Below, in pieces: positions 22,996 through 56,555 of a stretch of DNA of 64,000 nt. Source of the DNA: Antedon mediterranea (Eukaryota; Animalia; Echinodermata); contig NC_092674.1 of NCBI RefSeq assembly GCF_964355755.1, positions 30,318,001 through 30,382,000 of the forward strand, read 5' to 3'. The position numbers and the translations under genes are program-made. The notes beneath the pieces are model-generated. The model ran no database searches and was not told where the DNA came from. It saw only the letters and a list, made by a program, of their open reading frames with translations. Position 1 is the first letter of the stretch; each line of letters starts with the position of its first letter.

Positions 22996-31277
<8,282 letters not shown>

Positions 31278-32139: not shown

Positions 32140-32325
32140 AGCTAAATAATGACGTTCAACACGGCTAAATGACGACATCAACAAAGAGACCAATCAGATC
32201 TCTAAAGACTAAGAGTGACAAATTTCCTAAAAATAACCCTATATAAGAACGCCAACAAGAAACGCGGGTTAGACCATTTCACTCCTTCGTGGTTGGTAGA
32301 CATACATAGAAAGCTAAAGGTAAGT
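32140..32325 (+). promoter_or_regulatory. Pol II core promoter and non-coding exon 1 of nested gene copy 1
   Basis: TGACG motifs, CCAAT at 32190-32194, TATATAAG at 32240-32247 and a strong AAG|GTAAGT donor after 32319. Paralogous promoters have CACGTG plus CCAAT (38282/38299, 44931/44948, 59556/59573; copy 4 has only CACGTG at 53725), with donors after 38376, 45025, 53805 and 59650. Confidence 0.65.
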
Positions 32326-33572: not shown

Positions 33573-33745
33573 TATATTTGTGTTTAGTATAATAAACAAT
33601 GTAGGGGAAGGATGTAGATGGGGTGTGTGGGGGAATAAAATGACCAAATTGTTTTTTTTTAGGATTTCGATTTTCCGTTGCCAAAGTGCCGAAAAAGCTG
33701 GGCCGTAGCTACCTGACCACCTTTACACCAAAACCTCTGAGAACC

Positions 33746-36060
33746 ATGTGGTTTGAACAAAAATGGTTGCCTTTTCCTTTGTTAAACAGTAAGTAATTGT
33801 TATGTTTCGTCTTTTGTGGCCATTTTAACATACATTCATACCAATTTTTAAAACGTAAAGCATCACATTTAGTAAATTCAGACCATCATAACAGGGTGTT
33901 AACATTTTGTTTGAGTTGTACCAGTTCATACAGGAACAATAATGCATAATAAAGGATTCCCTCAAGTAGAAAACATGATTGCTATACTAAACTATTTAAA
34001 CTACTGTGCTGTTTGGCAGTTTTCAAATATTAATAAATTTAAGATATCCTTATCACTCAATTCATGTACAAAATACAATAATGTTTTAAACCCTCTACTG
34101 ATATCACCCTTTGAACAATAATTTGTATTAACTATAATTATAGATTAATCTACAACCAACAAAAGACATCTTCATTTGTGTTTGTTTTGTACCCATTGTA
34201 CATATTCATACAAAAACACAATACAGTACATAATATGATTCCCTCAAGTAGAAAACATGACTATGGTATTTACTATTATTACTATTATTAAGTAAATATA
34301 TTGGGAAGTATCCTACATTTGTACAATTTTTTCTTGCAGCCCAAGAAAATGATTTAATGAAATGGAAACTAACAGGAGGACAGGATGAAAATTGGTTAAA
34401 AATTGCAGATTATTTAAGTAAGTTTAACAAAGTCGATCAAAAAGACAATTTGTAACACTCAACACAGTGGCGGATCCAGAGGGAGGAGCACCCTCCTCAC
34501 GCCCCCTATAAATCTGGAGAAAAAAAAATTATCCTACCATAAGGAAAAAATTGGGAAAAAAGGCGTAAAAAAAAGTAAAGTACTTTCACTTTTGATTAAA
34601 ACACATTGTTTCAGCGCCGTGCTAATTTACTTCTTAGTAGAGGTCACCATAACCGTTGCTGTCTGTAAGAGTTGCGAAATGAATTTCCTATTTTCACCTG
34701 AAAAATAAACGCATTTTGGTCCCTGGATGTAACATGGTATTGACACGTGTATCGTACTCATACACAGCGAGGTGGGTATGAACGATTCGTACAAAGGACA
34801 CATGTTTATTGGAGGGAAAAAGTATGATCGTTTTGCTCATTGGTAGCATGCTACATATGAGAGTGTCTTTTCCTGCAAATTAGTGGTGCCATTTATCATG
34901 AATTTTATGTGCGAGAGTACCATTTCCGGCCATCTGGGGCGTCATTTACAAAGTTCGCTTCGCCACAGGTCCTGTCGACAGCCCTGGACAAGCACCTTTT
35001 TCCGCCATGTACGTGCAAACGCTGACTGCGCGAAACACCCTGTTGTGACGCTTTTACACAAAATAGGTCTATGGGGAAAATGTCACCCTTTAATAGGCTA
35101 GTACCTCAGTTTTCATATTTAAAATATCAATTTTTAATACATTTATTTAACGTAAGAGTGCCATTTCCGACCATCTAGAGGTGTTATATTTTCAAAATCG
35201 CCTCAACTCAGCCCCACAATGGTTGGGTTGGTGTGGCCTCTCTACAGTTGCGCCTCCCCTTTCACAAAATCCTGGATCCGCTCCTGCAACAGGCGTCAAA
35301 AGTTGATGGTATCAGCATTGTTTTTATTTTACGCAACTCTAGTTTATTGAATTATTTGAATATAATGCCTTTTACAAAATGAATTTCATAAAATATGTCC
35401 AATATTGAATTGTTTGAACATATTGAAATTGGAACATGGTTCCTGTACATATTTTGTAGTTTTTATTTAATGTTAATCAGAAGTACTTCATAAATTGTTA
35501 CTGATCTTGTTGTAATAATAAAGGATTAAAATTATATTTCAGTATAATCTTGTAAAAAATTGTTTGTAATAAAATTGAAAGTGATATTAATGCACTAAAT
35601 TTCTTCTGCTCCTCAATACTGTCCTATCATTGGCCAGTATACCTCTGTTGTGAAACTCGACTAAAAGCCCAACCTTGTTATTTTAAGTCGAACTGCAAAC
35701 TTCGACTACTTCTTTTATGAATCGAATTTGAACTACGACTGAAGTCCGGTTTAAGAATATGGGCTGAAAACCGCATATTTCATTCGTATTTATAGAAATA
35801 ACTTTTTTTTTCTGTTTATAGAATTCCTCTGTGGAAATCCCAACACTAAAGATTGTGATCCCACAAGTATTTTTCAAATATATAAATTAGTGCACATTGA
35901 TTTATATTTTATATATTTATATATTATATTTATCAAAATTTATAAATATGGCCTGAATTTTGATTTTAAAAATAAAAATATTATAAAAATTTATATCATT
36001 ATCAATGTCAATGGAATAAAAATTCTTATACTTATAAAAATATATATCTATTATATATAA
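33746..36060 (+). CDS. Nested orphan gene copy 1, predicted 119 aa with an Ile/Tyr-rich C-terminus
   Basis: ACC-ATG at 33746. Exons 33746-33788, 34340-34417 (78 nt, phase 1-1) and 35822-36060 give MWFEQKWLPFPLLNTQENDLMKWKLTGGQDENWLKIADYLKFLCGNPNTKDCDPTSIFQIYKLVHIDLYFIYLYIIFIKIYKYGLNFDFKNKNIIKIYIIINVNGIKILILIKIYIYYI*. The last exon has 78 stop-free codons in very AT-rich DNA. Confidence 0.6.
34465..35286. mobile_element. hAT-like MITE with a 5-bp TSD
   Basis: Termini CAGTGGCGGATCCAG...CTGGATCCGCTCCTG, flanked by CAACA at 34460-34464 and 35287-35291. Confidence 0.85.
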
Positions 36061-37889
36061 AATTAAAACAATTAAACTAAAAATTTATTCATTCATTTAT
36101 TCAAATAATTAATGAAATAAATTATAGTCATACATTATAGTTTTATACAATTAAAAAAAATATTTTGAATCCTACATTTTGGGTCACAAAAAAACATACT
36201 GTGGAAGGAAAACGAAAATGAATTGGAGGGTTAACATGGACAAACATGCCATTCTACCAGCTTCTGGATTCCTGCTAAAGACTGTCAAAGTTGGAAGGAC
36301 TTGGTGCACTGTACCTCATCTACTACACCCCTACAATCTTCACAAGATAACTAGAACTATTGTACATGACTAAGCCAAGTTTGAAGAATTTAAAATAAAT
36401 GTTATGCCTGTGAAATAAAAAAAAAAAAAGTTTTTTTAATGTTGATCTATCTGTTTTTTTTTTTGTCATCAAGTTTCGTAACCCATCCAACATAAACATT
36501 GGTAGAAGTGCTATACATACTGTATTTGGTGTGGTTCTACGGTTCAATCTAGTCTATGTTCTAAACAGCGATGTTTTGGCTTAATATTGGTAAATATATT
36601 ATTTGAAAAAACATCCCATTTTGAAAAAAAGCTTCCATAGAACATCGTTTGGAAAAAAACCCGCCTTAGAATAAACGCCTGCCAAATGCATACTGTATAT
36701 ACACAATATTGCATGATATTACATGACTTATGTTTTATATCGGTAAAATATAAGATTTGACATACCCTCGAGTATGATATTTTGCTCTCGGTAATTTATT
36801 TCCCTCAGCTTGCGCTTCAAGATATATATTCCCTCAAGCAAAATATCATTCCCTCTGGGATGTCAAATCTTATATTTCACCTCTAAGCAGGCAATATCGA
36901 TAACAACAAATTTGTATTTGTTGTTTTATCGGAAATATATCGCAGAGCCTTTTTGTTCAGTGTCTTTTATGTGATGAGCATCCTCTTATGTTGATATAAA
37001 GTTTGCAATACACCATGTATATTAGTTCTGAAAAGATCTGTTGAGTTTTTCTACAATTCGATCAATATACTATGATCGTCCTCAGTAGTGAGTATGCAAA
37101 ACGTCCAGGAAACTGGAATACATAGGTGAAATTGGGTGGGAGCATAATCTTGAAAATGATGAGTCTGTCTGGTAACAAATGCAATTCACAAAGAACAGGT
37201 TTGATGTGTTAACTACTTTTTCTATTTGAATTGCAAATAGTTCCGTTTGCTTTATTTTATTTTGTATCTACATTGAGATCCAATCACTGATACCCACACC
37301 ATTGTCACTTGTTTCAGTAATTTGTCTTTGGATTTATATATTAAAATAAACTTGAAATCTATGATGCTTTCAACTTTAAAAAATTCTATCCACAATATAT
37401 GAACTTTTTTCTTTACAGTACTTTCAATATATATGTTATTGTACCTTTAATGCAAATTAGTTGATAATTGTTAATACTATACTGGGCCTCTTTTGAAATC
37501 AATGCTTTGCCCTGAAAAGTATCATTCAATATAAATATTGTGTTACACAAAAACCTAATGAATTCATGCAGTAGAAAACAAACAAGATTCCACAATGATT
37601 ATTTAAATATCAGAATATTCCATTCACAAGAATTAGTCAAGAATGACATCAAAATAGATGTAAAGGGTCATGATCAAAGGTGGTCCTTTCATCGAATCAA
37701 CCATCAACATTATATTATTATTCTTTCTTTAATTCCATTCATAAACATTAAAAAACATAAACATGCATAAATAAGTATAATACAAAGAGAAATAAAAGAA
37801 TGGAAAGGAAAAATCTCCCTGTTACAAAAAAAAAATATACCGGTATAAGTATTTGAATATTTCTACCTAGCTGAAATCTGTGAAACTCA

Positions 37890-38178
37890 TGTTTGTTATT
37901 ATTTATATGGGGCTACCTCTTCTCTCCCAGTTGGTGATCAGTGGCTGTGTGTGCACTAGTACACCAGGGTAATCCCCTACTCGTTTCAAAAGATGTACTA
38001 GGTTCTTTAAGGTGCATATGAGCTAGATGTGTACAGTGGACATACTGTACAGTTTATAGTCCTTATCCGAGAAGACTTGTTCTACCACCAGAACCATGGA
38101 GCGAGTGAGCCTCGAACCCCTGCCAATGTTATTTCTACGTTATTACAGTTCCACTGTGTTAACCGCTCGGCCATGACC
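37890..38178 (-). mobile_element. tRNA-derived SINE upstream of each nested gene (also ~31945-32100, ~44545-44827, ~53335-53617, ~59165-59452)
   Basis: The minus-strand head has box A TGGCCGAGCGG and box B GGTTCGAGGC, then a body (CTCGGATAAGGACTATAAAC) and a (AAT)n tail. It was duplicated with the cassette. Confidence 0.75.
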
Positions 38179-39358
38179 AATACCTATTTCCGGAAGTGAA
38201 ATTGTAAGGGACAATTCAAGCTGAATAGTGATGAAATACAGTAATATTTTTTATGAACGTTCGTTTGACTTATGTCATAATCACGTGATCAAAGGGGACC
38301 AATCAGCACTGGTTCTCTACTCAGAAGCTGTATAGAAGAACAATTTTCTAGCCTAACGAAAGAAGACTCTCCAACGGTAGGTGTTAATTTTATTATCAGA
38401 TTGTAGTTAAGAGTTAGTTAGTTACAAAGAATTTCTTAAACAGTATTTTCAATATGTTTGTTGAAAATAACTTTATTTAATAATTATAGTTAGTTGAAAT
38501 CCCAAACTTCTGTACTAAATAGTATGGTTCTTCACATGTAGTAAATGCATTTGTAACTAGCCTAGGCCTCGCTTATAATCAGTCTCTGGGCTACACAACA
38601 GTACACCAGTAATTATTATAGTACAATTCTTATTTCGGATGTTATATAATTCTCATACATAGTGTATGACACAGCAAAATAGATTACTTTATTACTATTT
38701 TAACATAAGTTAAACTTTTTATGGTAGGGTTTAGTTGCATCTTTGATGAAAACTACCACAGGCTAGATCCAAATAAATACCACCTATATCACTCATCAGA
38801 TCTAATGTATAAAATGAGAAGAGATTTCACTCTGAAAATGATGTGTTCTATAAAAAGTTAATCTATATAACTAATGCTTAATTAGTCTGAAATATCTAGA
38901 CACAAGAAAACCTTCTAACTCTAGAATATTCCACAGAATGTAGATTTGATAACATTATAGCAAAACCCTGCGGTATTGTTTCATATTTATCTTTAGTATG
39001 ATAAAATTAAGGGTTGTTGCAATCATAATTTTTCACTTTCATTGCTAGGTTTTTACATTTAAAAATTTGATTTTTCATCCTTTTAGATTTGTCGAGAACA
39101 ATAAAACCTGACACCTTTCACTAAAACCCAGTTGCTCAAACAGAGGTTGCAAAAAGATCATCTAAACGCCACGGAAATGGGGATTAACAGTAAGTAATTA
39201 TGTTTCGTCTTTTGTAAGCATTTTAACATACATTCATACAGGAACAATAATATCTAAATAAAGGACTCCCTCAAATACAGTAGAAAACATGACTGCTATC
39301 TACTAAACTATTTAAACTCCTGTGCTGTTTGGCAGTTTTCAAATATTAATAAATTTAA

Positions 39359-39985
39359 AGACCCCTTCCCTGCAATTTTGGACGTTTTTTGGAAAATAAT
39401 ACATATATATCACTTTAAAAACATTAAACCATGTCATTCCTTGTCTTAAATGTACGTTTTATGGTAAATTATGATAAAAAGTGAGAAACAATGCACTACC
39501 TAAAGTAGCTCGCGGCGATCGACCTCTCGTGGACGGTCTTAGGCCTAGCCTAGCTAGGCTTAGTTTTGTAGGCCTAGCTGGTAAACATCGGTAACGTACG
39601 AACATCGTACGCGAGCTATATACCTAGCCTGACGTTGTATAGTTGCTGCATTAATTGTCTTTCTATTTTTTCCAGACTCCGTTGATACAAATTTGGGAAA
39701 ACCCGGTATTTTCGCTGAAAAGTTAGTGGTCTTCCATTGGTTTTGGCCTCACGATCAATCGAAAAGTGGGCGAATTACAGGTGAAAAACAAAAATATCAA
39801 TCCGCGCGCAATGCATTTTGGGATTTATAGCGGGCCGCTATAATTATTAGAATCGACTTATTTTTCACATTTTTAACCGTTTAAAGACGAAAAAAGTTAT
39901 CGCAATAGGACCATATAGTATTATTTTTACATTAAATATAGTTTGTGATCTTAAATTAGATCTAAAAAACGTAGGGAATGGGGCT
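39359..39985. mobile_element. Kolobok/piggyBac-like non-autonomous element with TTAA TSD
   Basis: TTAA-AGACCCCTTCCCT...AGGGAATGGGGCT-TTAA. The paralogous empty site (AAATTTAAGATATCC) is at ~34035. Confidence 0.85.
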
Positions 39986-40029
39986 TTAAGATCTCCTTAT
40001 CACTCAATTCATGTACAAAATACAATAAT

Positions 40030-40540
40030 AGGGAGGTTTAGCAACCTTATGAATACGATAACGAAAACGGATACGTCACACATTTGTGAAACTTTTGAGC
40101 TGATCCCCATTTCATATTCGTAAAGCGTATTCGTGTTGACGAATATCACCAGTCATAATTCGTAACTACAAAACGAGTATAGTTTTTGATCTATTTTGCA
40201 CATTTTGCATTTGAATCAGGAATGATTCATGATTATAATATAATTATACTTTTATTGAAAGTAATTGACTAAAGTAATTTACTAAAATGCCAGGTCAATT
40301 TTGATAAATAGCAGTTTTTAAAGTCCTCACTCGCTTTGATGTTACGCTAGGCCTAGGCAGTCAAGCACCAAGCAACACGTACCTGCACTTCGCTCAAATT
40401 TACCGCAGTCATATTTTGGACGGCGCCCTTAATATTTTGTTGCCATGCGAAACAGGATTTTACTGGCTTACGAAAAACGAATACGTGTGCGTGACGTATC
40501 CGTTTTCATTATCGTATTCGTAAGATTGCGAAACTTCCCT
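40030..40540. mobile_element. TIR MITE with a 3-bp AAT TSD
   Basis: ~50-bp TIRs (AGGGAGGTTTAGCAACCTTATGAATACGAT... / ...ATCGTATTCGTAAGATTGCGAAACTTCCCT). The empty paralogous site (CAATAATGTTTT) is at ~34076. Confidence 0.85.
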
Positions 40541-42369
40541 AATGTTTTAAACCCTCTACTGATATCACCCAATAATTTGTATTAACTAAGATTAATCTAC
40601 AACCAACAAAAATACACCTTCATTTGTGTTTGTTTTGTACCTTTTCTACAGTTAATACAAAATAACAATACAGTACATAAATATAAACTAAGCTATTTAC
40701 TATTATTGTTAAAAGGTAACAATTTTGGTGATGTATCAGGGAAAAATTTCATTTTAAAATTTTGTTTAGCAATATTGCTAATCAAACTGATTTTTGAGTC
40801 AAGGAACATAGTTTTGTATTGTATTTTTTGCTATACAATTTTCAAAATGTGTAGCAATAAGGTTGTTTTGTATAGCTTTTTGCTATGCTACACTGGCGAA
40901 ATTATTCCCTGTGTATCCAACATGTGTACATTTTTTGTTCTTGTAGACCGTGTAACACCAAAAGAAGATGCATTGTATTTGCTTGCAAATATGAATTCTA
41001 TTAATCAAACTAAATGTCAAACAAACCAAAAAGATCTTGAAAAGACAGAAAATTGGCGGCTACTCAACATAAAAAAGTCACCAACATCTGATGGTTAGTT
41101 TTTATTTTACACAACTCTTGTTTATTCAATTATTTGTTTGTTTTTTGTAATAAAATGGAAAGTGATATTAATATATATACTTTTTTTTCTCTTTCTGTTT
41201 ATAGAAGTCATCTTTTTTTTTCTCTTTTGTGGTGTTACTATTCATTTCATTCTCAAGTGATCAATTATTGAATACAATGATTTTATACATCTTTCTAATA
41301 TATATTCCATTGTTATTCTGACTTTTTTTCCCCGTTATCTTATATTTTCTCATATTCTTCATACAATTTGATCAAAACAATTTGATCAGTAGCATGTTTA
41401 TAACATTCTATACTTCATATACCTTTGTTGTTGTATCCACCTTTTTTCATAATTTCATTTTATTTTGCTATTTTTCTCTATATCTAAAACTTGAATATCA
41501 AAATGTATTAAAAAACATTGTTTTATATTTATCTCTTATAGGAGTAATCTTTGAAAATAGACCTAAGAATTCCAGCTTGGGAATGTTTTGTGAAAATGCT
41601 TCCACTATAATATATTATGGGTTTTGTAACTTTAAAATATATAATGAAATTTACTTTGATATACATTTTGCGGTAAATTCAGAAAATAAATATATTATCA
41701 CCATTTATATCATTATTGAAATAAATGGAATAAAAATAGTCATAATTATAAAAATACAAATGTATTCTATATAAATATAAAATTTAAAAAATTTAAATTA
41801 ATTTGAAATAATAATTTGTTAAACTATATTTAATTCGTCACTATGACAAATTAGGTTATGCATTGATTAAAATAAAGATAATTGATTTGTAAAAGATATA
41901 TTCATGAGGCAAAACTCTCCCTTAGCAGAAATGGTCCACAGGCCTGTCAAGAGTGACTGCCCATAAAACACACAATTGTAATTTGATTATATTAACTGCC
42001 CATCAAATACAACCCAAGGGTACTATTAGGTCATTTACAACAAGGTCACCTGGACAGCTCATGAAAATTCCTACATGGTTTTCAGCAATTTCTGTAGTGA
42101 AGTGTCTGTCACACTTCAGCTGGCCTCTCATGTGTGTCAAGATAAACAATCAGAACTGGTAAATTGTTTAAAACAGACCAAGATTTATTACCCAGATTTT
42201 TTCAAAAACCCGGGTGAAATGGACTGATTCTGCTAAGGGAGAGAAATGCCTAATGTTGTTTAATTATAGGTTATGCATTCATTAAAATAAAGATAATTGA
42301 TTTATAAAAGATATATTGTTTAATTATAGGTTATGCATTGATTAAATTGTTATATAAATAAATTGTTAG

Positions 42370-42567
42370 TTGTGACCTTGACCCATGACATTTTTCCCTC
42401 AAATTTCGAACTCGTCTGAGCTTTTGGGGCATAGATCATTGTTGCCAAATTTGGTGAGAATCGGATAAAAACTGTGGCCTCCAGGCTGTTCACAGACACA
42501 CACACACACAACACCCAAACACACAAACATACAGGGGTGAAAATATAACCTCCTTGGCGGAGGTAAT
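42370..42567 (+). mobile_element. 3' fragment of a pearl/HINE-like element
   Basis: GTGACCTTGACC core, (AC)n/ACAG microsatellite and terminal hairpin ACCTCCTTGGCGGAGGT, within short AT-rich tandem repeats. Confidence 0.6.
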
Positions 42568-43289
42568 TATAGGTTATGCATTGATTAAAATAAAGATAAT
42601 TGATTTGTAAAAGATATATTGTTTAATTATAGGTTATGCTTTGATTAAAATAAAGATAATTGATTTGTAAAAGATATATTGTTTAATTATAGGTTATGCA
42701 TTCATTAAAATAAAGATAATTGATTTATAAAAAATATATTGATTGATTGATTTTGTCAGAATCTTTAATCATTATATTACATAGCCTATGTAAATATGTG
42801 AACGTGATTGGTTGAAACTGCATCACATGACTACTGCTGCAAGGATCGTAAATCGTATATATCCTCGAGTACGATGATATTGACTGAGTAATTTTCGCGT
42901 AATTATCGTGTCCCTGTCATTAAACATATAAAATTCAGCAAATTCTCGAGTACGATGATATTTGACTGTGTAATTTTCGTGTGGCAACACTCGCGTTTGG
43001 CGATAAATAAACAAAAGTCATCTACTGAGTCTTGAACTTGCGATGAAATTGTCAATCCATCACAAAACAACCCTTCAACCGCTGCGCTACGGAACTGGCT
43101 TGAAGAAATTAATCAACTAAACTATTTAAGCTATGCATATACATAGCGCCCTCATTTGTTATTAGTCCTCCCTAGATGTGATGAAACACCGTTTGTGATT
43201 GGTCAATACTCACGCTAGTAACTAGTACACGCTGAACATCCGGTGATTAGGCTCGAAGAAGACGAATTGTTTATTTGGCCTACCTGATT

Positions 43290-43500
43290 TTATTAGGTGA
43301 TCATTTAGAATAAAATGATCACCTATTGTTATTGTATGAAATCTTTATTAGGTGATCATTTAGAATAAAATGATCACCTATTGTTATTGTATGAAATCTT
43401 TATTCTTTCTGTACACTATTTTGTGTAACAATTATCTCAAAAAGTTGAATGTCAATGATCACATACTGTAACTTAATCCTAATAAGCTTTTCAGCGTGAT
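43290..43500 (-). mobile_element. 3' end of a HINE-like element with a doubled terminal hairpin
   Basis: The minus strand reads ACACAAAATAGTGTACAGAAAGAATAAA-GATTTCATACAATAACAA-TAGGTGATCATTT...AAATGATCACCTA, with the terminal module present twice (period 55). It is homologous to the 6852-6959 terminus. Confidence 0.6.
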
Positions 43501-45687
43501 CACTCATCCGTGACTCGACGGACGCAAAAAAAAGTTGTTGATAGATGACGTCATTTCAATCATGTCGTTGGTTGGCCAGAATCCATAATTACCGCGCGGT
43601 ATTTTCACAAAATTGAATCTCTTTCGATCCTGAGCGGATTTCCGCTCAACCGATCGTCCGCTCCGCGTTCTGTGTAAATGGTCATAAGAAATAACATAGA
43701 TTCTATTTTTGCGTTTTCCGCTCAACTTTACCGCTTACCGTTACCGCTCGTCTGCGTAAATTGGCCTTTAGTGAAAGTGATGAGTCTGTCTATTGGTAAC
43801 AATTTAATTCACAAAGAATAGGTGTAATTTGTTAACTACTTCTTCTATTATTTGAATGGCAAATAGTTCCGTTTGCTTTATTTTATTTTGTATCTACATT
43901 GAGATCCAATCACTGATACCCACACCATTGTCACTTGTTTCAGTAATTTGCCTTTGGATTTATATATATTAAAATAAACTTGAAATCTATGATGCTTTCA
44001 ACTTTTTAAAATTCTATCCACAATATATGACCTTTTTTCTTTACCGTACTTTCAATATATATCTTAGTGTACCTATTCTTAATGTAAATTAGTTGATACT
44101 TGTTGATTGACTATACTGGGCCTCTTTTGAAATCAATGCTTTCACACTGAAAAGTATCATTCAATATAAATATTGTGTTACACAAAAACCTAATGAATTC
44201 ATGCAGTAGAAAACAAACAAGATTCCACAATGATTATTTAAATATCAGAATATTCCATTCACAAGAATTAGTCAAGAATGACATCAAAATAGATGTAAAG
44301 GGTCATGATCAAAGGTGGTCCTTTCATCGAATCAACCATCAACATATTATTCTTTCTTTACTTCCATTCATAAACATTCAAAAACATAAACATGCATAAA
44401 TAAGCATAATACAAAGAGAAACAAAAGAATGGAAAGGAAAAATCTCCCTGTTACAAAAAAAAATATACTGGTATATATATTTGAAAATTTGAAAAAGGCA
44501 CAAGGGAATGGAAATAATTTCTACCTAGCTGAAATGTGAAACTCATGTTTGTTATTATTTATACGGGGCTACCTCTTCTCTCCCAGATGGCTCAGTTATG
44601 ATCAGTGGCTGTGTGTGTACAGAGGTAACCCTACTCAAAAGATGTACTAGGTTCTTTAAGGTGCATATGAGCTAGATGTGTACAGTGGACATACTGTACA
44701 GTTTATAGTCCTTATCCGAGAAGACTTGTTCTACCACCAGAACCATGGAGCGAGTGAGCCTCGAACCCCTGCCAATGTTATTTCTACGTTATTACAGTTC
44801 CACTGTGTTAACCGCTCGGCCATGACCAATACCTATTTCCGGAAGTGAAATTGTAAGGGACAATTCAAGCTGAATAGTGATGAAATACAGTAATATTTTT
44901 TATGAACGTTCGTTTGACTTATGTCATAATCACGTGATCAAAGGGGACCAATCAGCACTGGTTCTCTACTCAGAAGCTGTATAGAAGAACAATTTTCTAG
45001 CCTAACGAAAGAAGACTCTCCAACGGTAGGTGTTAATTTTATTATCAGATTGTAGTTAAGAGTTAGTTAGTTACAAAGAATTTCTTAAACAGTATTTTCA
45101 ATATGTTTGTTGAAAATAACTTTATTTAATAATTATAGTTAGTTGAAATCTCAAACTTCTACACTAAATAGTCAGCATGGTTCTTCACATGTAATAAATG
45201 CATTCTTAACTAGCCTAGGCCTAGCTTATAATTAGTCTCTGGGTTACACAACAGTACACCAGTAATTATTGTAGTACAATTCTTATTTTGGATGTTATAT
45301 AATTCTCATACATAGTGTATGACACAGCAAAATAGATTACTTTATTACTATTTTAACATAAGTTAAACTTTTTACGGTAGGGTTTAGTTGCTTATAGTAC
45401 AATGACTCATCAAAACTGACAATATAAAAGATTTCATCTTTGATTTAAACTACCACAGGCTAAGACCCAAGTAAATACCACCTATATCACTCATCCGATC
45501 TAATGTATAAAATGAGAAGAGATTTCACTCTGAAAAAAGATGTGTACTAAAAGTTAATTTATATAGATTACACTTAATTAAAACACTCTCTCATCATACG
45601 TTGGTCTTGATTCTTCATTCTGGTGAAAACATGTAGTGACCGCGCAGAGTAACTAAACAGTTTCATTTTTATTTTCTTGTAGCAATT

Positions 45688-46336
45688 ATGGATTTTGGTG
45701 ATACTAAAATTGATTGGTTTTTAAAAGATTACATCAAAAAGCCAATGTCTGAACAAGAAGCATCAAAGTTACAAAGTAAGTATTAGCAGTGTAAACGGTT
45801 TGTTTTTATTTTATGCAACTCCTGTTTATTCAATTTTCTATCCAGACGTGTGAAACTCGACTAAAAGCCCAACCTTGTTAAGTCAAGTAAAACTGCTTAC
45901 TTTGACTACTTCTTTTATGAATCAAATTTGAAGTGATAGATCGAACTAGCACGTTTGAAGTTGAAGTTCGGTCTATGACTAAAGTTCAATTGAAGAATAC
46001 AGGCGCAAAACCTCATTATATTTCATTCATATTCATAGAACTTTTTTTCTCTTTCTGTTTATAGAAATATTCTTTAAAAACCCTAATATTAATGATTTTT
46101 ATTCAAAAATTGGCATTACAAAAAATAATCTAAAATTGTTTGTGGAAAATAAAATCAAATTATATAAAGAAGGACAAAAATTTATTTTGTCAAATAAAAT
46201 TATTATAATAACTGTAATAATAATAATAATCATCATTATTATTGTGAATGATGTTATTATTATTTTTATCATTTTTATTATTATTTTTATTATAATAATA
46301 ATAATAATTGTTATTATAATAAAATTTAAGAATTGA
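45688..46336 (+). CDS. Nested orphan gene copy 3, predicted 119 aa with a poly-Ile tail
   Basis: Exon 45683-45775 (ATG 45688; MDFGDTKIDWFLKDYIKKPMSEQEASKLQ) splices in phase 1 to 46065-46336 (KIFFKNPNINDFYSKIGITKNNLKLFVENKIKLYKEGQKFILSNKIIIITVIIIIIIIIIVNDVIIIFIIFIIIFIIIIIIIVIIIKFKN*). This is in frame with the 46136 ORF. Confidence 0.6.
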
Positions 46337-46754
46337 AAAAAAAATTTGGAAAAAAAAAATATTATAATACTTATTTTATATAAAATTAAAACAATTGAAA
46401 AAACCTATTCATTATTCATTTTATCATTACTATTACGTTATAGATACAAAATTTAAAAAATGTAATGCTAATTTTGGGGTAAAAAATCAAATACAACATA
46501 AGATGCTCATCAAGACACTGACCAAAAAGGCTGAGACCATACTGATGAGGGGATAGTAGGATTTCTATGACCAGATAGACCAACTTATTGCCAAAACAAG
46601 CCTTCAAGCAAACTGTTTCAAGCCATCAAGCTTTGCGCTAACCATCCTCCAATGACCTGTGGAAGAAAAACGAAAACAAGGCTGTCCCAGAATAACTTGG
46701 AGGGATAACATCAACACCTGGACAAACATGTCATTCTACCAGCTTCTGTCAGAA

Positions 46755-47545
46755 ATCTTCGTCATTCATTTATATCTTCGCCTCGACTATTCCAACTAAG
46801 AACATGTAGACATATGTTTGCTGATCAGTCATTCTCTTGCACAGCTCCATCCTTATGGAATACTCTTCCACAATCAATCAAGAACGCCAAAGCATTACCT
46901 ACATTGAAAGCAAATGAATCCAGCCAGACAACCAACGATAAGATAGGATAAGAAATTTCAAGAGAAATAAGAAATTCCTAAGGAAAACAAACAATATATT
47001 CAGACAAATAACACCAGAACACGGAATAATATATGTGGTCAGATCTTGTTTCATTACATTGGCTGCTGGTTAAACAACGCATAGAATTCAAGATCCTCAC
47101 GCCTACCTACAAAGCCATCCATAAACAATCACCGCAATATTTTTCATCGCTCGTCTCCTTCCAGAACACTCACAGAAATCTTTGTCTATATCTTTCTTAG
47201 CCTCGACTATTCCAACCAAGAACATACGTTTGCTGATCAGTCATTCTCTTGCACAGCTCCATCCACAATCAATCAAGAACGCCAAAGTATTACCTACATT
47301 GCAAGCAAATGAATCCAGCCAGACAACCAACGATAAGAAAGCGGAAATGTTATCAGGAGAAATATAAGGTTCCTAAGGAAAACAAAAGAAATATTCAGAC
47401 AATAAACACCAGAAATTGACTTTGATGAGCCAGAAGAACAACAATGCATCATAGACACAATGGAAACAGAGCTAACGAAACTGCAATGACAAGATCAGGA
47501 AGAGCAGTAAACAAGTCACAATATTTAAAAGACTATGTCGCATAT
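46755..47545 (+). mobile_element. Decayed L2/CR1-clade LINE 3' fragments plus a Gypsy-like pol tail (duplicated at ~61350-62190)
   Basis: Remnant peptides LHWLLVKQRIEFKILTPTYKAIH and SFSCTAPSLWNTLPQSIKNA resemble the L2/CR1 ORF2 C-terminus. TRSGRAVNKSQYLKDYV resembles an LTR-element pol tail. Confidence 0.65.
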
Positions 47546-48019
47546 GTGGTATAACCCAATGTGCATGACCAGTATGGTTGCAATCAGAAAGACATTTAAA
47601 CAACTAATTTCATTCTCTTTTCTTACAAGTTTACTTAATATACCTTATTTTAATAAGTCACACAGCTATCACTATCAGGCATTTAAGCAAAATACGATTA
47701 TCAGATGTATATGAGACACTTCATTAACACTACTGTTCATAATCCACGGGCTTAGCGTTTTATATTTTGTTGGGGTAGGGATAATGTCAACAGCCCAGTA
47801 ATTAAAACACTAACCAATATAATCTTGGTATCATTGTGTAGCATTATCTTATGTTTTGTAATCATATAAAATTTTAATTCGGAACAATTATTAAAGGTCA
47901 AAGGTCATTTACCTGTTGGTGTTGCACAAATTCACATTTTATCTAATAATATAGATACATTTTAATATCGCATCTCTAAATTTTGATATAAATCGATTTA
48001 AATAAACATAAATAAATAA

Positions 48020-49414
48020 ACTAGATTTAATTCGTCACTATGATTATATGCATTGATTTAAATAAAAATAATTGATTTTTAAAAAGATATATTGATTGAT
48101 TGATTTTCACAGAATCTTTAATTATTTTAATATATCATAGGATCTTGCTAACGGGAATACAATGGCCGGTATCACAATCTGATCGAAGATCCCTCTGCGT
48201 ATAATGTCATAAACCACATTGTTACATAAGTAATAAAGACATTACTTACTTTTTATATAGATTTCATTATAAATTATGTGTATAATCTATACACTAAAAA
48301 ATAAAATTGAACAAACCATACTGATAATAAAAAAAAAATCTTATTTCGTTTCCCAAGGTGAGACTCGAACTCGGTACCTTGAGTGCCATAGACACGAGCA
48401 CAGACCACTGAGCCATACACAACTGACTAAAACTTGTAGAAAGATTCCTCCGTGTATCTACTATGCAGTAACCACTTTGGTGCAAATAGATTATTACATA
48501 CCGCAATGAATTATAATTTTTTACCATGATGACATCTTTAAAAATGCAAAAAAAAATGATGCACTGTCAAACTATGAACTTTTGAAGGAAGAAAGTTATT
48601 AATGTTAAGTTTGTTATTTTGGCCTAAGACAATGTCATAATTTGTTTGATTGTCGGAATTAATTTTTTTAAATTTAATATGCAATTAATGATGACTTAAT
48701 CAACGTTTGTTCTCTTAATTTCATAATAAATCATATGATACATGCACTTCAAGAAAATGAAATAAAAAATAGGTGTTCCCGAGCATTCTAACGATATATA
48801 TTAATTTTAAAATTTAGCATATTTTCACCATTTTGTTAACTTACACGTGCGTAGACTGTCACTTTAGACGTGCTCGTATAACGATGTTTCGCGTTGAAAA
48901 GTGAATAAAATATGATGATATTATTAAAGAAAGGTTATACAACAGTAATCGGACAAAAAAAGTGCGCACTCATGGTAATTTTTTAAACGCTTAAAATTGC
49001 CTGAAACGTACTCTAATTTCATCGAAAATAAATTCGGACAATTTTGAAAATTTTAAGCACGCGTACGCATGCGTTATATGCGCTACGCACGTAATTGTAT
49101 CGCCATATGATGAAATATGACCGGAAATTTATGAGTACCAAATTTTGTTTAAAAATGATTCATGCTTGTGAAGATATGATTACAACGTGATTTCATTAAA
49201 TCGCGCGTAGACCAGGTAATGTTTGATTGCGCACCGTGAAAACATAACCACATCGATTCCTGGCCATAAGGAATATACTCTGAAAAATTGACTTAGCTAG
49301 ATGAAACTGATATCAAGATAATTCACGGACAAAATAGTGCTAAGGAAAGAATAAATAAATAAATAAAGATTTTGACAGAATCAAGAGGTTATATGCATGA
49401 TAATGCATATAATC
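48020..49414 (+). mobile_element. ~1.4-kb HINE-like element distantly related to the 682-6959 family
   Basis: 5' ACTAGATTTAATTCGTCACTATGATTATATGCAT and 3' hairpin TTATATGCAT-GATA-ATGCATATAA. The internal motif TTTTGAAAATTTTAAGCACGCGTACGCATGCG resembles the left-array body. The element is absent from the paralogous flanks at ~62690 and ~57525. Confidence 0.65.
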
Positions 49415-49613
49415 ATTAATGTAGGCTTATTGATGGAAATTCTTCTGTTAATTTAAACGGCCTAGGTCTAAAGTGAATATTTTATTGCCAAGGAATCATT
49501 AATTAGTAATTATCTGTATATTATTCTTCGCAAGGTAAGGTGAATGCAACGCCTAACTAGGCAGGCTTATTACATAAAGGAGGCCTAGCTACACCCGACC
49601 CAGCAGTTACATT

Positions 49614-51874
49614 GGGTGCTGGTCAACCCGTACCCAAACCAACCCTACCCATGCCAACTCGTACCCAACTTGGCTAACCCGTACCCAAATAATTGGTCAA
49701 CTCGTACCCACTTTGGCTAACCCGTACCCAAACCAACCCGTACCCATGCCAACTCGTACCTAAATATTTGGCTTACTCGTACCCAAGTATTTGGCTTACT
49801 CGTACCCATTATTTGGCCTACTCGTACCCATTTTTGGCTTACTCGTACCCATTATTTGGCCTACTCGTACCCAATTTGAATAATTACTTGTAATGATTTG
49901 ATCGCAAAACTAGTGGTATGCTTTTGCCGTATGAATATTTTTATATTTAAATTTTTATTTTATTTTACAGGTCTCGGTGAAATGTGTGCTAATAAAAATG
50001 ACCATTGATTTGATTGTATGCTTCGTTTAATTAGGCATATATTTGTTAACATTTATTTAATAGTATTATAGTTTTATAAACGTATGTTTGATGTGTCTTT
50101 TTTATTTACGTAAGAGAACATTAATTAATAAAAAAATATTTTAACTGTTGTATAGTATTACAATTCTTAATTAAGCCCAGTAAAGTAGGTCTACCAACAA
50201 CGTATAATTTTTATACTTATCAATTTTTATCACCTAATTATCTTCCCTGATTAGATTCGATCAAGTAATTATTATTTCTATTGTATTGGTAATTTAAAAT
50301 TGGTTGAATTAACAACGTCCTGTTTTAAGCAAAAACCCCACGGGGCTATGGGGTCAAATTACTCGTAGATTTCGTGTTACGTGTTTTTGCTGACCGGGAT
50401 TAACCTTTTATTATTAAAAAACACGCATTTATAGGGTATCAAAGAGACGACTCAGTAATGACGTATGATCGTTTTCCATATATTGTATTTATTAATAATT
50501 CAGTGAAATGATCATATCGGGGATCATAATACACGTACTGTAAGGCATGCAGGGCTATGGGGTCGAATTACTCGTAGATTTCGTGTTACGTGTTTTTGCT
50601 GACCGGGATTAACCTTTTATTATAAAAAAAACACGCATTTATAGGGCGTCAAAGAGACGACTCAGCAATGACGTATGATCGTTTTCCATATATTTTATTT
50701 ATTAATAATTCAGTGAAATGATCATATACACGTACTGTAAGGCAATTAAACATTTTGGCAGATTTTCTTCTATAACAGCTACGTGTTTTTGCTGACTGGG
50801 GATTCCTCTTTTATATTAAAAAAACGCATTTGTAGTGCGTCAAAAAATAGACAACGCAATGTGGCGTATGATCGTTTCCTATTTATTTTTTTTCTAAATA
50901 ATTCAGTAAAATGATCTGTTTGTTTACATTTTTGGTAGATGTTTCCGCAATAACAGGCCAGCTACGTGTTTTTGCTGACGAGGGATTCCCTTAAAAAAAA
51001 AAAAAACCCTTTCTATAATGTGTCAAATAAGACAAATCTACGGCCGTATGTCGTATTATTTACTAAAATAATATAAACGTTCTGAAAGCCTACCTACACG
51101 TGTCTGAGTATACTTAGGCCTACGTATCTGTCAGCGATAAGATGATTTTTTTAAATAGTTTTAGTAGTATGTATTTTGTTTTTTTAGTCATAATAATACA
51201 GTAATAATCATTATAAAATGAAAACGTAATAACAGCAAATGTCGTCGTTTGTAATTAAATGTTAAATTATTGGAGGTTACCTTTTATTATTATTCTCACA
51301 TCCGTCATTGTATACTAGATAAACGACAAAAATATAATCTACTACTAAATGCTCATACCAGCAATGAGGCTGGTATCCACTTAAATAGTTTCGTGATTTA
51401 AAATACGAGTGACTACTTAAAAATGTATTAGATATTTTCGAAATGTTAAAACAGTTTAATATTTTCCAAAACTTGCAAAACAAAACAACAAAAACCATTC
51501 GTTTTAAAACGATTTTCAAAAAGCACATTAGGCCTACTTCATTATCTGTAAAATAAAATGAAAATACAAATTATGTATAAGATATTCATGTTTACTCTTA
51601 ATAATTCAAGTTTTCATCATCACAGACTAGTGGGTATTTCAATTTCCGTGTACAGGCTATTCATAGTAAATAATAGATTAATAACTATTCATAAATAAAA
51701 AAAAATAGAATGCAGCACAGCCGACCACTGACATCTTCCATGTAAAACAGCGCCCTCAAGTATTAACTTGACCAAATACGACGTACCCAAATACGATGAA
51801 AGCTGTGCTTTTTTCGTACGAGTCAAAACAAAATTTGGGTACGAGTTGGCATGGGTACGGGTTGACCTGTATTC
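49614..51874. mobile_element. 2.26-kb non-autonomous DNA transposon with 8-bp TSD and subterminal repeats
   Basis: TSD GTTACATT at 49606-49613 and 51875-51882. Termini carry GGTCAACCCGTACCC / GGGTACGGGTTGACC with CTCGTACCCA arrays, and there are internal ~200-bp repeats at 50340-51000. The empty site is at ~57720. Confidence 0.88.
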
Positions 51875-51920
51875 GTTACATTCACTGGGAATACATAGGT
51901 GAAATTTGTTGGGAGTATAA

Positions 51921-52549
51921 AGGCCAATTTACACAGACGAGCGGTAACGGTAAGCGGTAATTGTAAGCGAAAAACCGCGTGGCTTTTCCCATTTACACAG
52001 CGCGCGGAGTTCGTGAACGGAGTGGTGGAAAGTAGGTGCGTGTAGGCCTCGAGGCTAATGCATGTTACAGTCACTGCTGGCCTGGATGTGACTGCATGAC
52101 TGTCAGTAGGCCTAGCACACACAGGCCTAAGTTTTAGAGGGAATTGTTGCCTAATAACGTACTAAAATGTGTATTTTCTTTTCACTGTCTTTATACGAAC
52201 ATTAGTCACGTCGTAGGTGTTTGTATTTCTGAATAAAAAGAAGTTGCAAACTAGGCTAGGCCTACTACGGCACTCGTATTTATTGTCGTCTTTCACTCGA
52301 CGGACGCAAAAAAAAGTTGTTGATAGATGACGTCATTTCAATCATGTCGTTGGTTGGCCAGAATCCATAATTACCGCGCGGTATTTTCACAAAATTGAAT
52401 CTGTTTCGATCCTGAGCGGATTTCCGCTCAACCGGTCGTCCGCTCCGCGTTCTGTGTAAATGGTCATAAGAAATAACATAGATTCTATTTTTGCGTTTTC
52501 CGCTCAACTTTACCGCTTAACGTTACCGCTCGCCTGCGTAAATTGGCCT
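51921..52549. mobile_element. PIF/Harbinger-like MITE (partial copy at ~43505-43770)
   Basis: TIRs AGGCCAATTTACACAGACGAGCGGTAACGG... / ...CGTTACCGCTCGCCTGCGTAAATTGGCCT, with TAA/TTA flanks. Confidence 0.8.
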
Positions 52550-54793
52550 TTAGTGAAAGTGATGAGTCTGTCTATTGGTAACAATTTAATTCAGGTGTAA
52601 TGTGTTAACTACTTCTTCTATTTGAATGGCAAATAGTTCCGTTTGCTTTATTTTATTTTGTATCTACATTGAGATCCAATCACTGATACCCACACCATTG
52701 TCACTTGTTTCAGTAATTTGCCTTTGGATTTATATATATTAAAATAAACTTGAAATCTATGATGCTTTCAACTTTAAAAAATTCTATCCACAATATATGA
52801 CCTTTTTTCTTTACCGTACTTTCAATATATATCTTAGTGTACCTATTCTTAATGTAAATTAGTTGATACTTGTTGATTGACTATACTGGGCCTCTTTTGA
52901 AATCAATGCTTTCACACTGAAAAGTATCATTCAATATAAATATTGTGTTACACAAAAACCTAATGAATTCATGCAGTAGAAAACAAACAAGATTCCTCAA
53001 TGATTATTTAAATATCAGAATATTCCATTCACAAGAATTAGTCAAGAATGACATCAAAATAGATGTAAAGGGTCATGATCAAAGGTATCCTTTCATCGAA
53101 TCAACCATCAACATTATATTATTATTCTTTCTTTACTTCTATTCATAAACATTAAAAAACATAAACATGCATAAATAAGTATAATAAATACAAAAAGAAA
53201 CAAAAGAATGGAAAGGAAAAATCTCCCTGTTACAAAAAAAAATATACTGGTATATATATTTGAAAATTTGAAAAAGGCACAAGGGAATGGAAATAATTTC
53301 TACCTAGCTGAAATGTGAAACTCATGTTTGTTATTATTTATTGTTGTTATTATTCAGTCAAAGACTGGTCTCCCAGATGGCTCAGTTATGATCAGTGGCT
53401 GTGTGTGTACAGAGGTAACCCTACTCAAAAGATGTACTAGGTTCTTTAAGGTGCATATGAGCTAGATGTGTACAGTGGACATACTGTACATTTTAAAGTC
53501 CTTATCCGAGAAGACTTGTTCTACCACCAGAACCATGGAGCGAGTGAGCCTCGAACCCCTGCCAATGTTATTTCTACGTTATTACAGTTCCACTGTGTTA
53601 ACCGCTCGGCCATGACCAATACCTATTTCCGGAATTGAAATTGTAAGGGACAATTCAAGCTGAATAGTGATGAAATACAGTAATATTTTTCATGAACGTT
53701 CGTTTGACGTAGTATGACTCAATTCACGTGATCAAAGGCACTGGTTTAGAAGAACAGCTGTGTAGAATAACAATTTTCTAGCCAACGAAAGGAGACTCTC
53801 CAACGGTTAGTGTTAATTTATTATCAGATTGTAGTTAGTTACTTAAGAATTTCTTAAATACAGTATTTTCAATATGAAAAATAACTTTATTTAAGAATTA
53901 TAGTTACTGTAGTTGAAATCTCAAACTTCTGTACTAAGTCAGCATGGTTCTTCACATGTAGTAAATGCATTTGTAACTAGCCTAGGCCTAGCTTATAATT
54001 AGTCTCTGGGTTACACAACAGTACACCAGTATGTTATTATAGTACAATTCTTATTTCGGATGTTATATAATTCTCATACATAGTGTATGACACAGCAAAA
54101 TAGATTACTTTATTACTATTTTAACATAAGTTAAACTTTTTACGGTAGGGTTTAGTTGCTTATAGTACTCAATGACATCTTTGATGAAAACTACCACAGG
54201 CTAGATCCTAATAAATACCACCTATATCACTCATCAGATCTAATGTATAAAATGAGAAGAGATTCACTCTGAAAAATGATGTGTACTATTAGTTAATCTA
54301 TATAACTATAATGCTTAAAATGGACCAAAAATGGATTTTCAATTTTTTTCATTTTAGAATGATGTTTTGGGGGCTATATTAGGTGTTGCTAGAATGTATA
54401 TGTTACAAAATATAAATTCGCCCTTTTGGGGAAAGCCCCATTTAAAAATAAAAAAAATTCACGGTTGACGTCACTTTGCGAATATATTCCTATCCCTCTA
54501 ATGGACAATTTGCAGTTTTTTGGCTATAACTCTTAAAATCTATAACCCAGTACCGTTTTGATACGATCAATCGGGAAATTACCTCACGACAACAATATTG
54601 TGTTTATTTCGTACCCATTGTACATATTCATACAAAACCATAATACAGTACATAAAATAAAGGATACCCTGAAGTAGAAAACATGACTACTATCATTACT
54701 ATCATTATCATTATACATCACCGTCGTCACCATCACCGTCGTCATTATCATCATTATTTATTATTAGGTCAAGATATTGGTGAAGTATTAAAA

Positions 54794-56555
54794 ATGTTAA
54801 AACTATTTGAAGAGACAATTATGGTAGCAAAGAAAAAATTTACCAGTCTAAAACGCAAAAGTAAGTATAATTTATGTTTCGTCTTTTGTAAGTATTTTAA
54901 CTTATTGCATCTGTTAATGAGATTTACTTATTATTGAAATACTGACAATATTGTGTTTATTTCGTACCCATTGTACATATTCATACAAAACCATAATACA
55001 GTACATAAATAAAGGATTCCCTGAAGTAGAAAACATGACTACTATCATTACTATCATTATCATTATACATTACCATCCTTACTATCTTCATTATCATCAC
55101 TATCACTACCAACTATCATTTATTATTAGGTCAAGATATTGGTGAAGTAGATGATGATCTTTTTCGATGTATCTTATACGAATATAATATTAAACACAAT
55201 TTAAAACAAGAAAGTTTACAAGATATACATTTTTATTCTGGTAAGTTTAAGTGAAATATAATAATAAAATAGAGATGATTGAAGAGGCAAAATGGATGCA
55301 TTACATAAAAAAAATTACTTTATTACTGTTTACTAAGATTACTTATTATTAAGATGCTGACAAAATTGTGTTTATTATTATTATTTATCGCTATTCGCCA
55401 TCGTTATCATTATCAATATTATTATCATCATTATTTATTATTAGGTCAAGATATTGGTGAAGTATTAAAAATGTTAAAACTATTTGAAGAGACAATTATG
55501 GTAGCAAAGAAAAAATTTACCAGTCTAAAACGCAAAAGTAAGTATAATTTATGTTTCGTCTTTTGTAAGTATTTTAACTTATTGCATCTGTTAATGAGAT
55601 TTACTTATTATTGAAATACTGACAATATTGTGTTTATTTCGTACCCATTGTACATATTCATACAAAACCATAATACAGTACATAAATAAAGGATTCCCTG
55701 AAGTAGAAAACATGACTATGCTATTTTCTATCATTACTATTATTATTAGGCAATATTTTTGATATTGGTGAAGTATCAACCATCTTTAAACTATTTGAAA
55801 TGAAGAATGATCTCATCAATTTTTCTGGTAAGTTTAAGTGAAAGATTTTAATAAAAATAGAGATGATTGCAGAGGCTCTAAAATGGATGTATTACATAAA
55901 AAAGAAATTGCTTGAGGTTTACTAAGATTAATTATTATTACTAGATGGTACGCTAGCCATCTAGGTCGTGCCCACAGATGGTTCTCCAACTGGCTATTTC
56001 AAATGTACGTACCACAGGACTATAATACATTGTCGTTTACAGAAACGAATAAATAGACAATGATTTATGTACTCAACTGAAATTAGCACCCTGGGAAAAG
56101 AATTACTTTTGAAAAAGAAACTTCTCACAAAATGAGTCCAAATGTTTGAGTCAAATTTAAACAAACCCAATGTGTGTAACATTAGGGTTGAGAGATGGAG
56201 AAGAGGATGGGTGCAAAGAGGAAAAATGTATTATGACCTTCAGACCATTCTCATCGCAAATGCCAAACTGTCTATAAATGTAAATGCACTGGACCAAAAC
56301 AATTTGTCTATTTTTTCGTAAAATATTTTTCATTATTTATAGAAATAACTCAGAACTTTCTTTTCTTTTTAATTCTTTCTCTTTATAGAAATGCTGTACA
56401 TCATTAAAAAACTCAACACCTCCAAGACAGGAAAAGGAAACATTAATACAGTTAAAACTGCAACAGAAAAAAACCACATTGTTATAATTATTTACCTGTA
56501 TATTGATGGTGTTCGCATCATTATTATTTTAAAATTTTTTTTTAATGTCTATTAA
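54794..56555 (+). CDS. Nested orphan gene copy 4, predicted 171 aa built from duplicated phase-1 exons
   Basis: Exons 54768-54860 (ATG 54794), 55130-55240, 55445-55537 and 55750-55827 (93/111/93/78 nt, all phase 1-1 and open) plus terminal exon 56389-56555 (EMLYIIKKLNTSKTGKGNINTVKTATEKNHIVIIIYLYIDGVRIIIILKFFFNVY*). Confidence 0.62.

What the first reader, a model, noticed from the sequence alone, without database searches (positions are those of the whole stretch)
33663..56555. Exons diverge far more than their flanking introns across the paralogues
Seen: intron sequence after the first coding donor is nearly the same in copies 1, 2 and 4 (GTAAGT...TTATGTTTCGTCTTTTGT...ATTTTAAC at 33789, 39190, 54861). 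Intron 1 and the GATTCCCT...AAGTAGAAAACATGACT blocks are also shared. The enclosed exons are barely alignable by eye (MWFEQKWLPFPLLN vs MGIN vs MLKLFEETIMVAKKKF) yet keep phase and stay open. Established: this inverted conservation pattern is known from conotoxin and snake-venom PLA2 genes. Inference: diversifying selection or exon-targeted turnover.
Basis: partly seen in the sequence, partly recalled or inferred. Interest (0 to 1): 0.75.

Follow-up and report, generated by a model that had tools for sequence, protein, structure and literature searches.

The report
Feather-star orphan genes with overwritten introns
Five neighbouring copies of a small gene with no known relatives in a feather star have nearly matching introns and promoters but mostly unrecognisably different coding exons, most likely because the copies keep overwriting each other's non-coding DNA while selection keeps the old, distinct proteins apart.

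Summary
Observation confirmed. Five tandem + strand cassettes lie in crinoid DNA, probably inside a WDR19 intron. Homologous introns and promoters are 74-98% alike, while most coding exons between them score near shuffled level. The exons are real: six internal exons are open in one phase (P about 1e-8), copy 2 matches RefSeq XP_071951683.1 exactly, and copy 1 is transcribed.

Non-coding DNA is a mosaic of exchange tracts (P=1e-4). In the one pair alignable without bias, synonymous sites are about four times more diverged than the intron, and dN<dS. The young pair (copies 3 and 5) differs at 0 of 347 coding sites against 2.7% in flanks. Positive selection alone would need omega of about 20-40 in simulation.

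Best reading: old paralogous exons kept apart by selection while gene conversion overwrites the flanks, as in L/M opsins but far more extreme, with exon chimerism, splice-site sliding and transposon exonisation. The proteins are orphans with no signal peptide and a shared Ile-rich tail, so not toxin-like. The scan noted the same pattern before on other DNA.

The parts
31478..32319 (+). Copy 1 upstream module, core promoter and predicted non-coding leader exon (donor 32320); core part unalignable to the other copies
32333..33576 (.). Copy 1 intron 1 folded back on itself: inverted duplication with 51-nt tandem repeats; A>G-edited in run X1
33663..33788 (+). Copy 1 first coding exon (ATG 33746, phase-1 donor 33789); RNA contig ends exactly at this donor but reads through the 33663 acceptor
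33789..34339 (+). Copy 1 intron 2, 92% identical to copy 2 intron 2 over aligned sites; low copy by DNA depth, so not a high-copy repeat
34340..34417 (+). Copy 1 internal exon, 78 nt, phase 1-1, predicted; not covered in run X1
35822..36060 (+). Copy 1 last coding exon (predicted) with Ile-rich tail
37151..39086 (+). Copy 2 upstream module, promoter, leader (donor 38377) and intron 1; 38052-38481 identical to copy 3 at all polymorphic sites scored (conversion tract)
39087..39189 (+). Copy 2 first coding exon (ATG 39177; acceptor predicted)
39676..39780 (+). Copy 2 extra 105-nt phase 1-1 exon of the RefSeq model, inside a ~630-nt insertion flanked by TTAA that is absent from copy 1
40947..41093 (+). 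Copy 2 internal exon, 147 nt, 100% match in RefSeq XP_071951684.1 and XP_071951683.1
41542..41774 (+). Copy 2 last coding exon per RefSeq model, predicted beta-meander ending in an Asn-Gly hairpin
43772..45682 (+). Copy 3 upstream module, promoter, leader (donor 45026) and intron 1
45683..45775 (+). Copy 3 first coding exon (ATG 45688); positionally the internal exon of copies 1 and 2, so the exon 2/intron 2 unit is missing
46065..46336 (+). Copy 3 last coding exon, poly-Ile tail from trinucleotide repeats
52554..54767 (+). Copy 4 upstream module, promoter, leader (donor 53806) and intron 1; core promoter differs at 17 of 113 sites from copies 2, 3 and 5
54768..54860 (+). Copy 4 chimeric exon A1 (93 nt; 5' part from former intron end, donor of the exon-2 type)
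55130..55240 (+). Copy 4 exon B1 (111 nt)
55445..55537 (+). Copy 4 exon A2, identical to A1 (93 of 93)
55750..55827 (+). Copy 4 exon B2 (78 nt); the intron behind it resembles exon sequence of copies 2 and 3
56389..56555 (+). Copy 4 last coding exon with Ile-rich tail
58140..62705 (+). Copy 5, young duplicate of copy 3 (coding 60317-60404 and 60689-60942), with no coding substitutions
22999..31277 (-). WDR19/IFT144 exons for residues ~591-1391; residues 1-590 are not in the window, so the array likely sits in a WDR19 intron

Best explanation
This is a tandem family of five small spliced genes, likely all protein-coding, whose introns and promoters are a patchwork of near-identical tracts, most likely because gene conversion and unequal crossing-over keep overwriting the non-coding DNA while selection would remove tracts that run into the old, distinct coding exons.

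Shown: the identity contrast, the mosaic tracts, open phase-1 frames, a RefSeq model for copy 2, and transcription of copy 1.

Inferred: the exons are much older than their flanks; heterology and selection stop tracts near exon edges; the uniform phase-1 introns let exon loss (copy 3), exon duplication and chimerism (copy 4), splice-site sliding and transposon exonisation (copy 2) keep the frame; and the N-terminal exons evolved moderately faster than neutral.

Function is a guess: non-secreted proteins of 113-171 aa whose Ile-rich C-terminal hairpin anchors them in a membrane or drives self-assembly, with a copy-specific N-terminal part that binds different partners.
For: Mosaic: 17 informative sites among copies 2-5 fall in 4 runs against 11.2 expected (P=1e-4). 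Copies 2 and 3 are identical over 29 consecutive polymorphic sites, 38052-38481 (0 of 5000 shuffles), yet their coding exons are at shuffled level.

Intron 3 of copy 1 shares one block with copy 2 only and one repeat with copy 3 only.

Copy 1-2 tail: pS 0.33 / dS 0.43 and dN 0.18, against 34 of 416 mismatches in intron 2 (p 0.0025). Copy 1-3 last-exon head: dS 1.2, dN 0.63. Copy 4 tail vs copies 1 and 2: pS 0.83-0.92, pN 0.39-0.42.

Copies 3 vs 5: 0 of 347 coding vs 108 of 4053 non-coding differences (p 2e-4).

Six internal exons are stop-free in phase (P about 1e-8) with lengths all multiples of 3. The RefSeq model maps letter for letter. An RNA contig ends at donor 33789.
Against: dS rests on short stretches (13-17 synonymous sites in the two main rows), and the tail registers were chosen by protein similarity, which inflates pS over pN.

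Most N-terminal exons cannot be aligned, so neither dN/dS nor age is measurable where divergence is greatest. The only place with pN>pS is 13 codons in copy 4 (4.5 vs 0.5 changes).

Against adjacent flanks only, the copy 3/5 contrast is weak (p about 0.04) and could itself be a conversion tract or an allelic duplication in the assembly.

Tracts are shown directly for the promoter/intron 1 module; for intron 2 they are inferred from age. No outgroup orthologue was found. Models of copies 1, 3, 4 and 5 are my predictions, and copy 1's internal exon had no cover in X1. No functional evidence exists; tail hydrophobicity exceeds composition in copies 3 and 4 but not in copy 1 or in the later-discarded copy 2 frame.
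Confidence: 0.65

Rival explanations
1. Recent duplications followed by very strong diversifying selection on the coding exons, as in venom PLA2 or conotoxin genes; the introns show the true young age.
For: Exons are unalignable but in frame. A more conserved tail with a variable N-terminal part resembles the conserved signal / variable mature split (10.1101/107672 passages). pN>pS in 13 codons of copy 4.
Against: Synonymous sites exceed intron divergence and dN<dS where measurable without bias. Simulation needs omega of about 20 at d 0.12 and about 40 at d 0.04 (8 replicates each, no indels). Young pair has 0 of 347 coding differences. Mosaic tracts are shown. Conotoxin mature exons average only 2.9 times their flanks.
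Confidence: 0.13
2. Exon interiors are replaced or hypermutated by an exon-targeted process (segment switch, ASSET-like), with the flanks left untouched.
For: Sharp edges and changed lengths in copy 4 (111 vs 78 nt between 92-98% flanks). Synonymous excess and a diverged non-coding leader also fit. ASSET is described in PMC7285919 (passages).
Against: No coding change in the copy 3/5 pair or the copy 4 A1/A2 pair. Run X1, from another sample, shows no difference across copy 1's first coding exon. No donor sequence elsewhere in the window; the rest of the genome could not be searched.
Confidence: 0.1
3. The exons are nearly unconstrained (non-coding host or decaying de novo ORFs) and the introns are alike because they hold a functional element such as a small RNA.
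For: Coding GC is 16-32% vs 41-46% in WDR19 exons. No protein relatives found. Exon edges slide between copies.
Against: Rfam gives nothing near a gathering score. Similarity spans whole introns and upstream DNA, not a short element. Neutral exons would not diverge faster than flanks and would not stay open. Tail dN<dS.
Confidence: 0.06
4. Part of the pattern is an assembly artefact (haplotypes joined in tandem, or collapsed introns).
For: Copies 3 and 5 differ by about 2.7%, a level alleles could reach; depth was not tested there.
Against: DNA contigs from three runs of one sample match copy 1 with 0 differences and show a separate copy-2-type contig (tables 5c and 8). Copy 5's upstream DNA is shared with copy 4, not copy 3.
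Confidence: 0.04

Closest known systems
Catarrhine L/M opsin tandem genes (PMC3213168; abstract and results section 12 read)
   Same: Exons, including synonymous sites, are more diverged than introns; conversion tracts lie in introns; selection acts against homogenising the exons.
   Different: Opsin exons remain readily comparable (dN and dS are measured). Here most exons are at shuffled level, exon number and edges change, and the proteins are orphans.
Bovine CEACAM32 (PMC7042247, abstract) and copepod GOT1p1/p2 (PMC3728101, abstract)
   Same: Conversion in leader and introns but not in coding exons; islands of divergence between paralogues.
   Different: Known protein families; here five copies, chimeric exons and splice-site sliding.
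Snake venom PLA2 / three-finger toxin ASSET and conotoxin genes (PMC7285919, 10.1101/107672; passages read)
   Same: Non-coding DNA more conserved than coding exons; one conserved end and one variable part; exonisation is also reported there.
   Different: Those are secreted, signal-peptide, Cys-rich products with KA near or above KS. Here there is no signal peptide, 0-3 Cys, dN<dS where measurable, and the conserved part is C-terminal.
Sea urchin Sp185/333 (SpTransformer) cluster (PMC3091723, abstract)
   Same: Echinoderm cluster of small diverse genes with similar flanks; duplication and conversion proposed.
   Different: Two-exon genes that are similar throughout and immune-induced. No sequence link was found, and no immune role was tested here.

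Membership tests
Conversion-plus-selection divergence islands (opsin type) | Exons more diverged than introns between tandem paralogues | tested here: met
Conversion-plus-selection divergence islands (opsin type) | Synonymous divergence above intron divergence | tested here: met
   pS 0.33 vs 0.08, p 0.0025, on one 29-codon stretch; dS 1.2 in a second
Conversion-plus-selection divergence islands (opsin type) | Exchange tracts in non-coding DNA | tested here: met
   promoter/intron 1 module; intron 3 incongruence
Conversion-plus-selection divergence islands (opsin type) | Intron trees group by species, exon trees by orthology | not testable with these tools
   no orthologue or second genome
Venom-type accelerated evolution (conotoxin/PLA2) | Secreted precursor with conserved N-terminal signal peptide | tested here: not met
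   N-terminal hydropathy maximum -0.05 to 1.09; no shared N-terminus
Venom-type accelerated evolution (conotoxin/PLA2) | Conserved cysteine framework or family domain | tested here: not met
   0-3 Cys; no Pfam or PDB hit
Venom-type accelerated evolution (conotoxin/PLA2) | dN near or above dS in the variable exons | tested here: inconclusive
   dN<dS in alignable parts; variable exons unalignable; pN>pS in 13 codons only
snoRNA/miRNA host gene | Small RNA family in the conserved introns | tested here: not met
   only sub-threshold hits, on the copy 1 hairpin and one at 62945
Sp185/333 (SpTransformer) | Two-exon gene structure | tested here: not met
   leader plus 2-5 coding exons
Sp185/333 (SpTransformer) | Induction by immune challenge | not testable with these tools
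   only assembled contigs of one RNA-like run were available

The most novel reading that the evidence does not exclude
The homogenised phase-1 introns act as standing recombination handles that swap, drop, duplicate and fuse whole exons between copies. This would make the array a combinatorial diversification system for a crinoid-specific family of tail-anchored or self-assembling recognition proteins, so that individuals carry different exon combinations. The copy-1 RNA contig that leaves copy 1 exactly at copy 2's insertion site could be such a recombinant allele.
Probability: 0.15. Interest if true: 0.75.

Novelty: new variant of a known kind. Interest (0 to 1): 0.47.

Why it matters
It is an unusually extreme case of a known process: flanks up to 98-100% identical around exons that have lost all alignability. 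It warns that 'exons diverge more than introns' does not by itself show venom-like positive selection, and it offers a compact locus where conversion, selection and exon-targeted mutation make different predictions testable with a sister species. It also points to an uncharacterised crinoid protein family. Two paper searches for such an echinoderm case gave 0 papers, and the listings showed nothing on it; subscription journals are not covered.

Tried and rejected
No whole genome was held, so further copies, donors for exon interiors and the 5' half of WDR19 could not be sought.

Sequencing runs: no RNA holder was listed on record; X1's RNA status is a guess, supported by its own pattern. Reads were laid only on 33300-35890, so expression of copies 2-5 in reads is untested. 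The lack of X1 cover at 34083-34430 is a hole and no evidence either way.

Homology searches were blank. Pfam: 0 significant among 11 exon translations and 3 copy-2 queries. Word-index searches with two exons: none (length-limited). HMMER over representatives with one exon: the RefSeq protein plus two weak hits in long, repetitive unnamed proteins, rejected. PDB sequences: none. Viral contigs: none. ESM Atlas: best 0.81, chance level. Foldseek: no E<=0.001.

My first model of copy 2's last exon (acceptor 41205) was replaced by the RefSeq acceptor 41542. The rows that use 41205 are dropped, as is the reading that copy 1's tail equals copy 2's 3'UTR. Two out-of-register dN/dS rows were dropped and redone. 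Codon-position counts on unalignable exon pairs were uninformative. The miRNA-family Rfam hits are the hairpin of the inverted repeat, far below gathering scores. No complex prediction was run. No supplements were read.
Full report
SETTING. The window is AT-rich animal DNA. Minus-strand exons at 22999-31277 encode WDR19/IFT144; the best hit is the crinoid Anneissia japonica at 93% identity. Its residues 1-590 have no match in the window, so the 32 kb to the right, holding the cassettes on the opposite strand, is most simply one large WDR19 intron (inferred). A copy-2 exon matches RefSeq Antedon mediterranea XP_071951684.1 at 100%, and isoform XP_071951683.1 (165 aa) maps letter for letter on four window exons. 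Self-BLAST shows five cassettes with a shared upstream module, leader and intron 1.

Between copies 1 and 2, upstream DNA (191 of 209), intron 1 (251 of 284), intron 2 (382 of 416 after removing three insertions) and the shared part of intron 3 (93 of 107) align far above shuffles, while the two exons between them score z 3.0 and 1.7. Inside copy 4, two duplicated exons have flanks at 125 of 128 and 103 of 112 but interiors at z 0.3 and lengths of 111 and 78 nt. In equal 45-nt windows at 17 homologous splice-site pairs the intron side wins 15 times, and 11 intron scores exceed the best control from unrelated WDR19 acceptors (pairs are not independent). Intron 2 is not a dispersed repeat: DNA depth there is about 1.5-4.5 times single copy, and the exons are single copy.

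THE EXONS ARE CODING. Six internal exons bounded by splice motifs are all multiples of three and stop-free in the same phase (joint P about 1e-8 by shuffling; I chose the edges from splice motifs, so this is not fully blind). The RefSeq last exon of copy 2 is open for 76 codons (P 0.0004). In run X1 a contig of depth 153 ends at 33788, the last base before the donor, and an intron contig of depth 8.8 overlaps it by 30 nt, as a splice branch would. Its 11 differences are all A>G and all within the arm of a long hairpin; 9 of 11 are not explained by the partner arm. This fits A-to-I editing and fixes the transcript on the + strand (inference; the DNA runs are another sample).

Exons are not always positional homologues. 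Copy 3 lacks the exon 2/intron 2 unit. Copy 4 repeats a two-exon unit, and its exons begin with sequence that is intron end in copy 1 (z 4.7-4.9); the intron behind its fourth coding exon resembles exon sequence of copies 2 and 3 (z 3.4-3.5). Copy 2's RefSeq model adds an exon from inside a TTAA-flanked insertion. All copies share an Ile-rich C-terminal segment, with an Asn-Gly or Asp-Gly turn in copies 1, 2 and 4. It is predicted as a beta-hairpin at modest confidence (pLDDT 59-78) and has no fold match. The proteins (113-171 aa) lack a signal peptide and have 0-3 Cys.

CAUSE. Three results point to conversion of flanks rather than young copies under extreme selection. First, the shared upstream module is a mosaic: 17 informative sites form 4 runs against 11.2 expected (P=1e-4), and copies 2 and 3 are identical from 38052 to 38481 while differing by 3-6% on either side. 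Second, in the gap-free tail alignment of copies 1 and 2, pS is 0.33 (dS 0.43) and pN 0.16 (dN 0.18), against 8% mismatch in intron 2 (p 0.0025). The head of the last exon in copies 1 and 3 gives dS 1.2 and dN 0.63 beside an intron at 16% mismatch. Third, simulated point substitution needs omega of about 20 at neutral distance 0.12 and about 40 at 0.04 to reach shuffled level.

An active exon mutator is disfavoured, because the young pair 3/5 differs at 0 of 347 coding sites against 108 of 4053 non-coding (p 2e-4; about 0.04 against adjacent flanks only). The non-coding core promoters of copies 1 and 4 are also divergence islands, which fits selection preserving any functional difference.

Against a purely neutral history of the variable exons: at distance 0.4, neutral exons stay alignable (z 11) and omega of 3-5 is needed. 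Moderate positive selection or indel-rich change in the N-terminal exons is therefore likely but unmeasurable here. That symmetric phase-1 exons tolerate shuffling is recalled knowledge, not a call result.

COMPARISON. The signature matches gibbon L/M opsins (PMC3213168: abstract and section 12), CEACAM32 (PMC7042247, abstract) and copepod GOT1 (PMC3728101, abstract). Venom genes show the same surface pattern but with KA near or above KS and secreted products (PMC7285919 and 10.1101/107672, passages); membership fails on signal peptide and cysteines. Sp185/333 (PMC3091723, abstract) is an echinoderm analogue without sequence link. Earlier AI notes of this scan report similar islands in other genomes; I did not check them.

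VERDICT. A real feature: an extreme new variant of a known process in an uncharacterised orphan gene family. Mechanism confidence 0.65; protein function remains a guess; interest 0.47.

Noticed in passing
window 32333-33576: Inverted duplication in copy 1 intron 1 forms a long hairpin; run X1 shows 11 of 11 A>G differences in its arm and reads through the 33663 acceptor, suggesting an edited, retained 5' region.
   Followed up: partly
window 34042 / 39358: An X1 contig identical to copy 1 departs exactly at the TTAA site where copy 2 has an insertion. The 39 nt before it are identical in both copies, so it is either a copy 1/2 recombinant allele or a graph artefact.
   Followed up: partly
window 35181-35712: Copy 1 intron 3 piece is present at depth 62 in X1, against 8.8 for intron 2; possible alternative exon or retention.
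   Followed up: no
window 39359-39989: About 630-nt insertion with TTAA on both sides and short inverted ends (Kolobok-like, label recalled) that supplies a 105-nt in-frame exon in the RefSeq model.
   Followed up: partly
window 62805-63168: Matches the spacer and start of the upstream module before copy 2; a sixth cassette or remnant may follow beyond the window.
   Followed up: no
window 20812-21375: Single + strand ORF (187 codons stop to stop) with weak zf-MYND, ubiquitin-like and UBA/HYPK Pfam hits, just beyond the WDR19 3' end.
   Followed up: partly
window 681-6851 and 9971-11134: Large tandem repeat with ~1.5-kb units, and a 54-nt near-perfect tandem array.
   Followed up: no
window 46200-46330: The poly-Ile tail of copies 3 and 5 is encoded by trinucleotide repeats; the copies differ by an 18-nt in-frame indel there.
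   Followed up: yes
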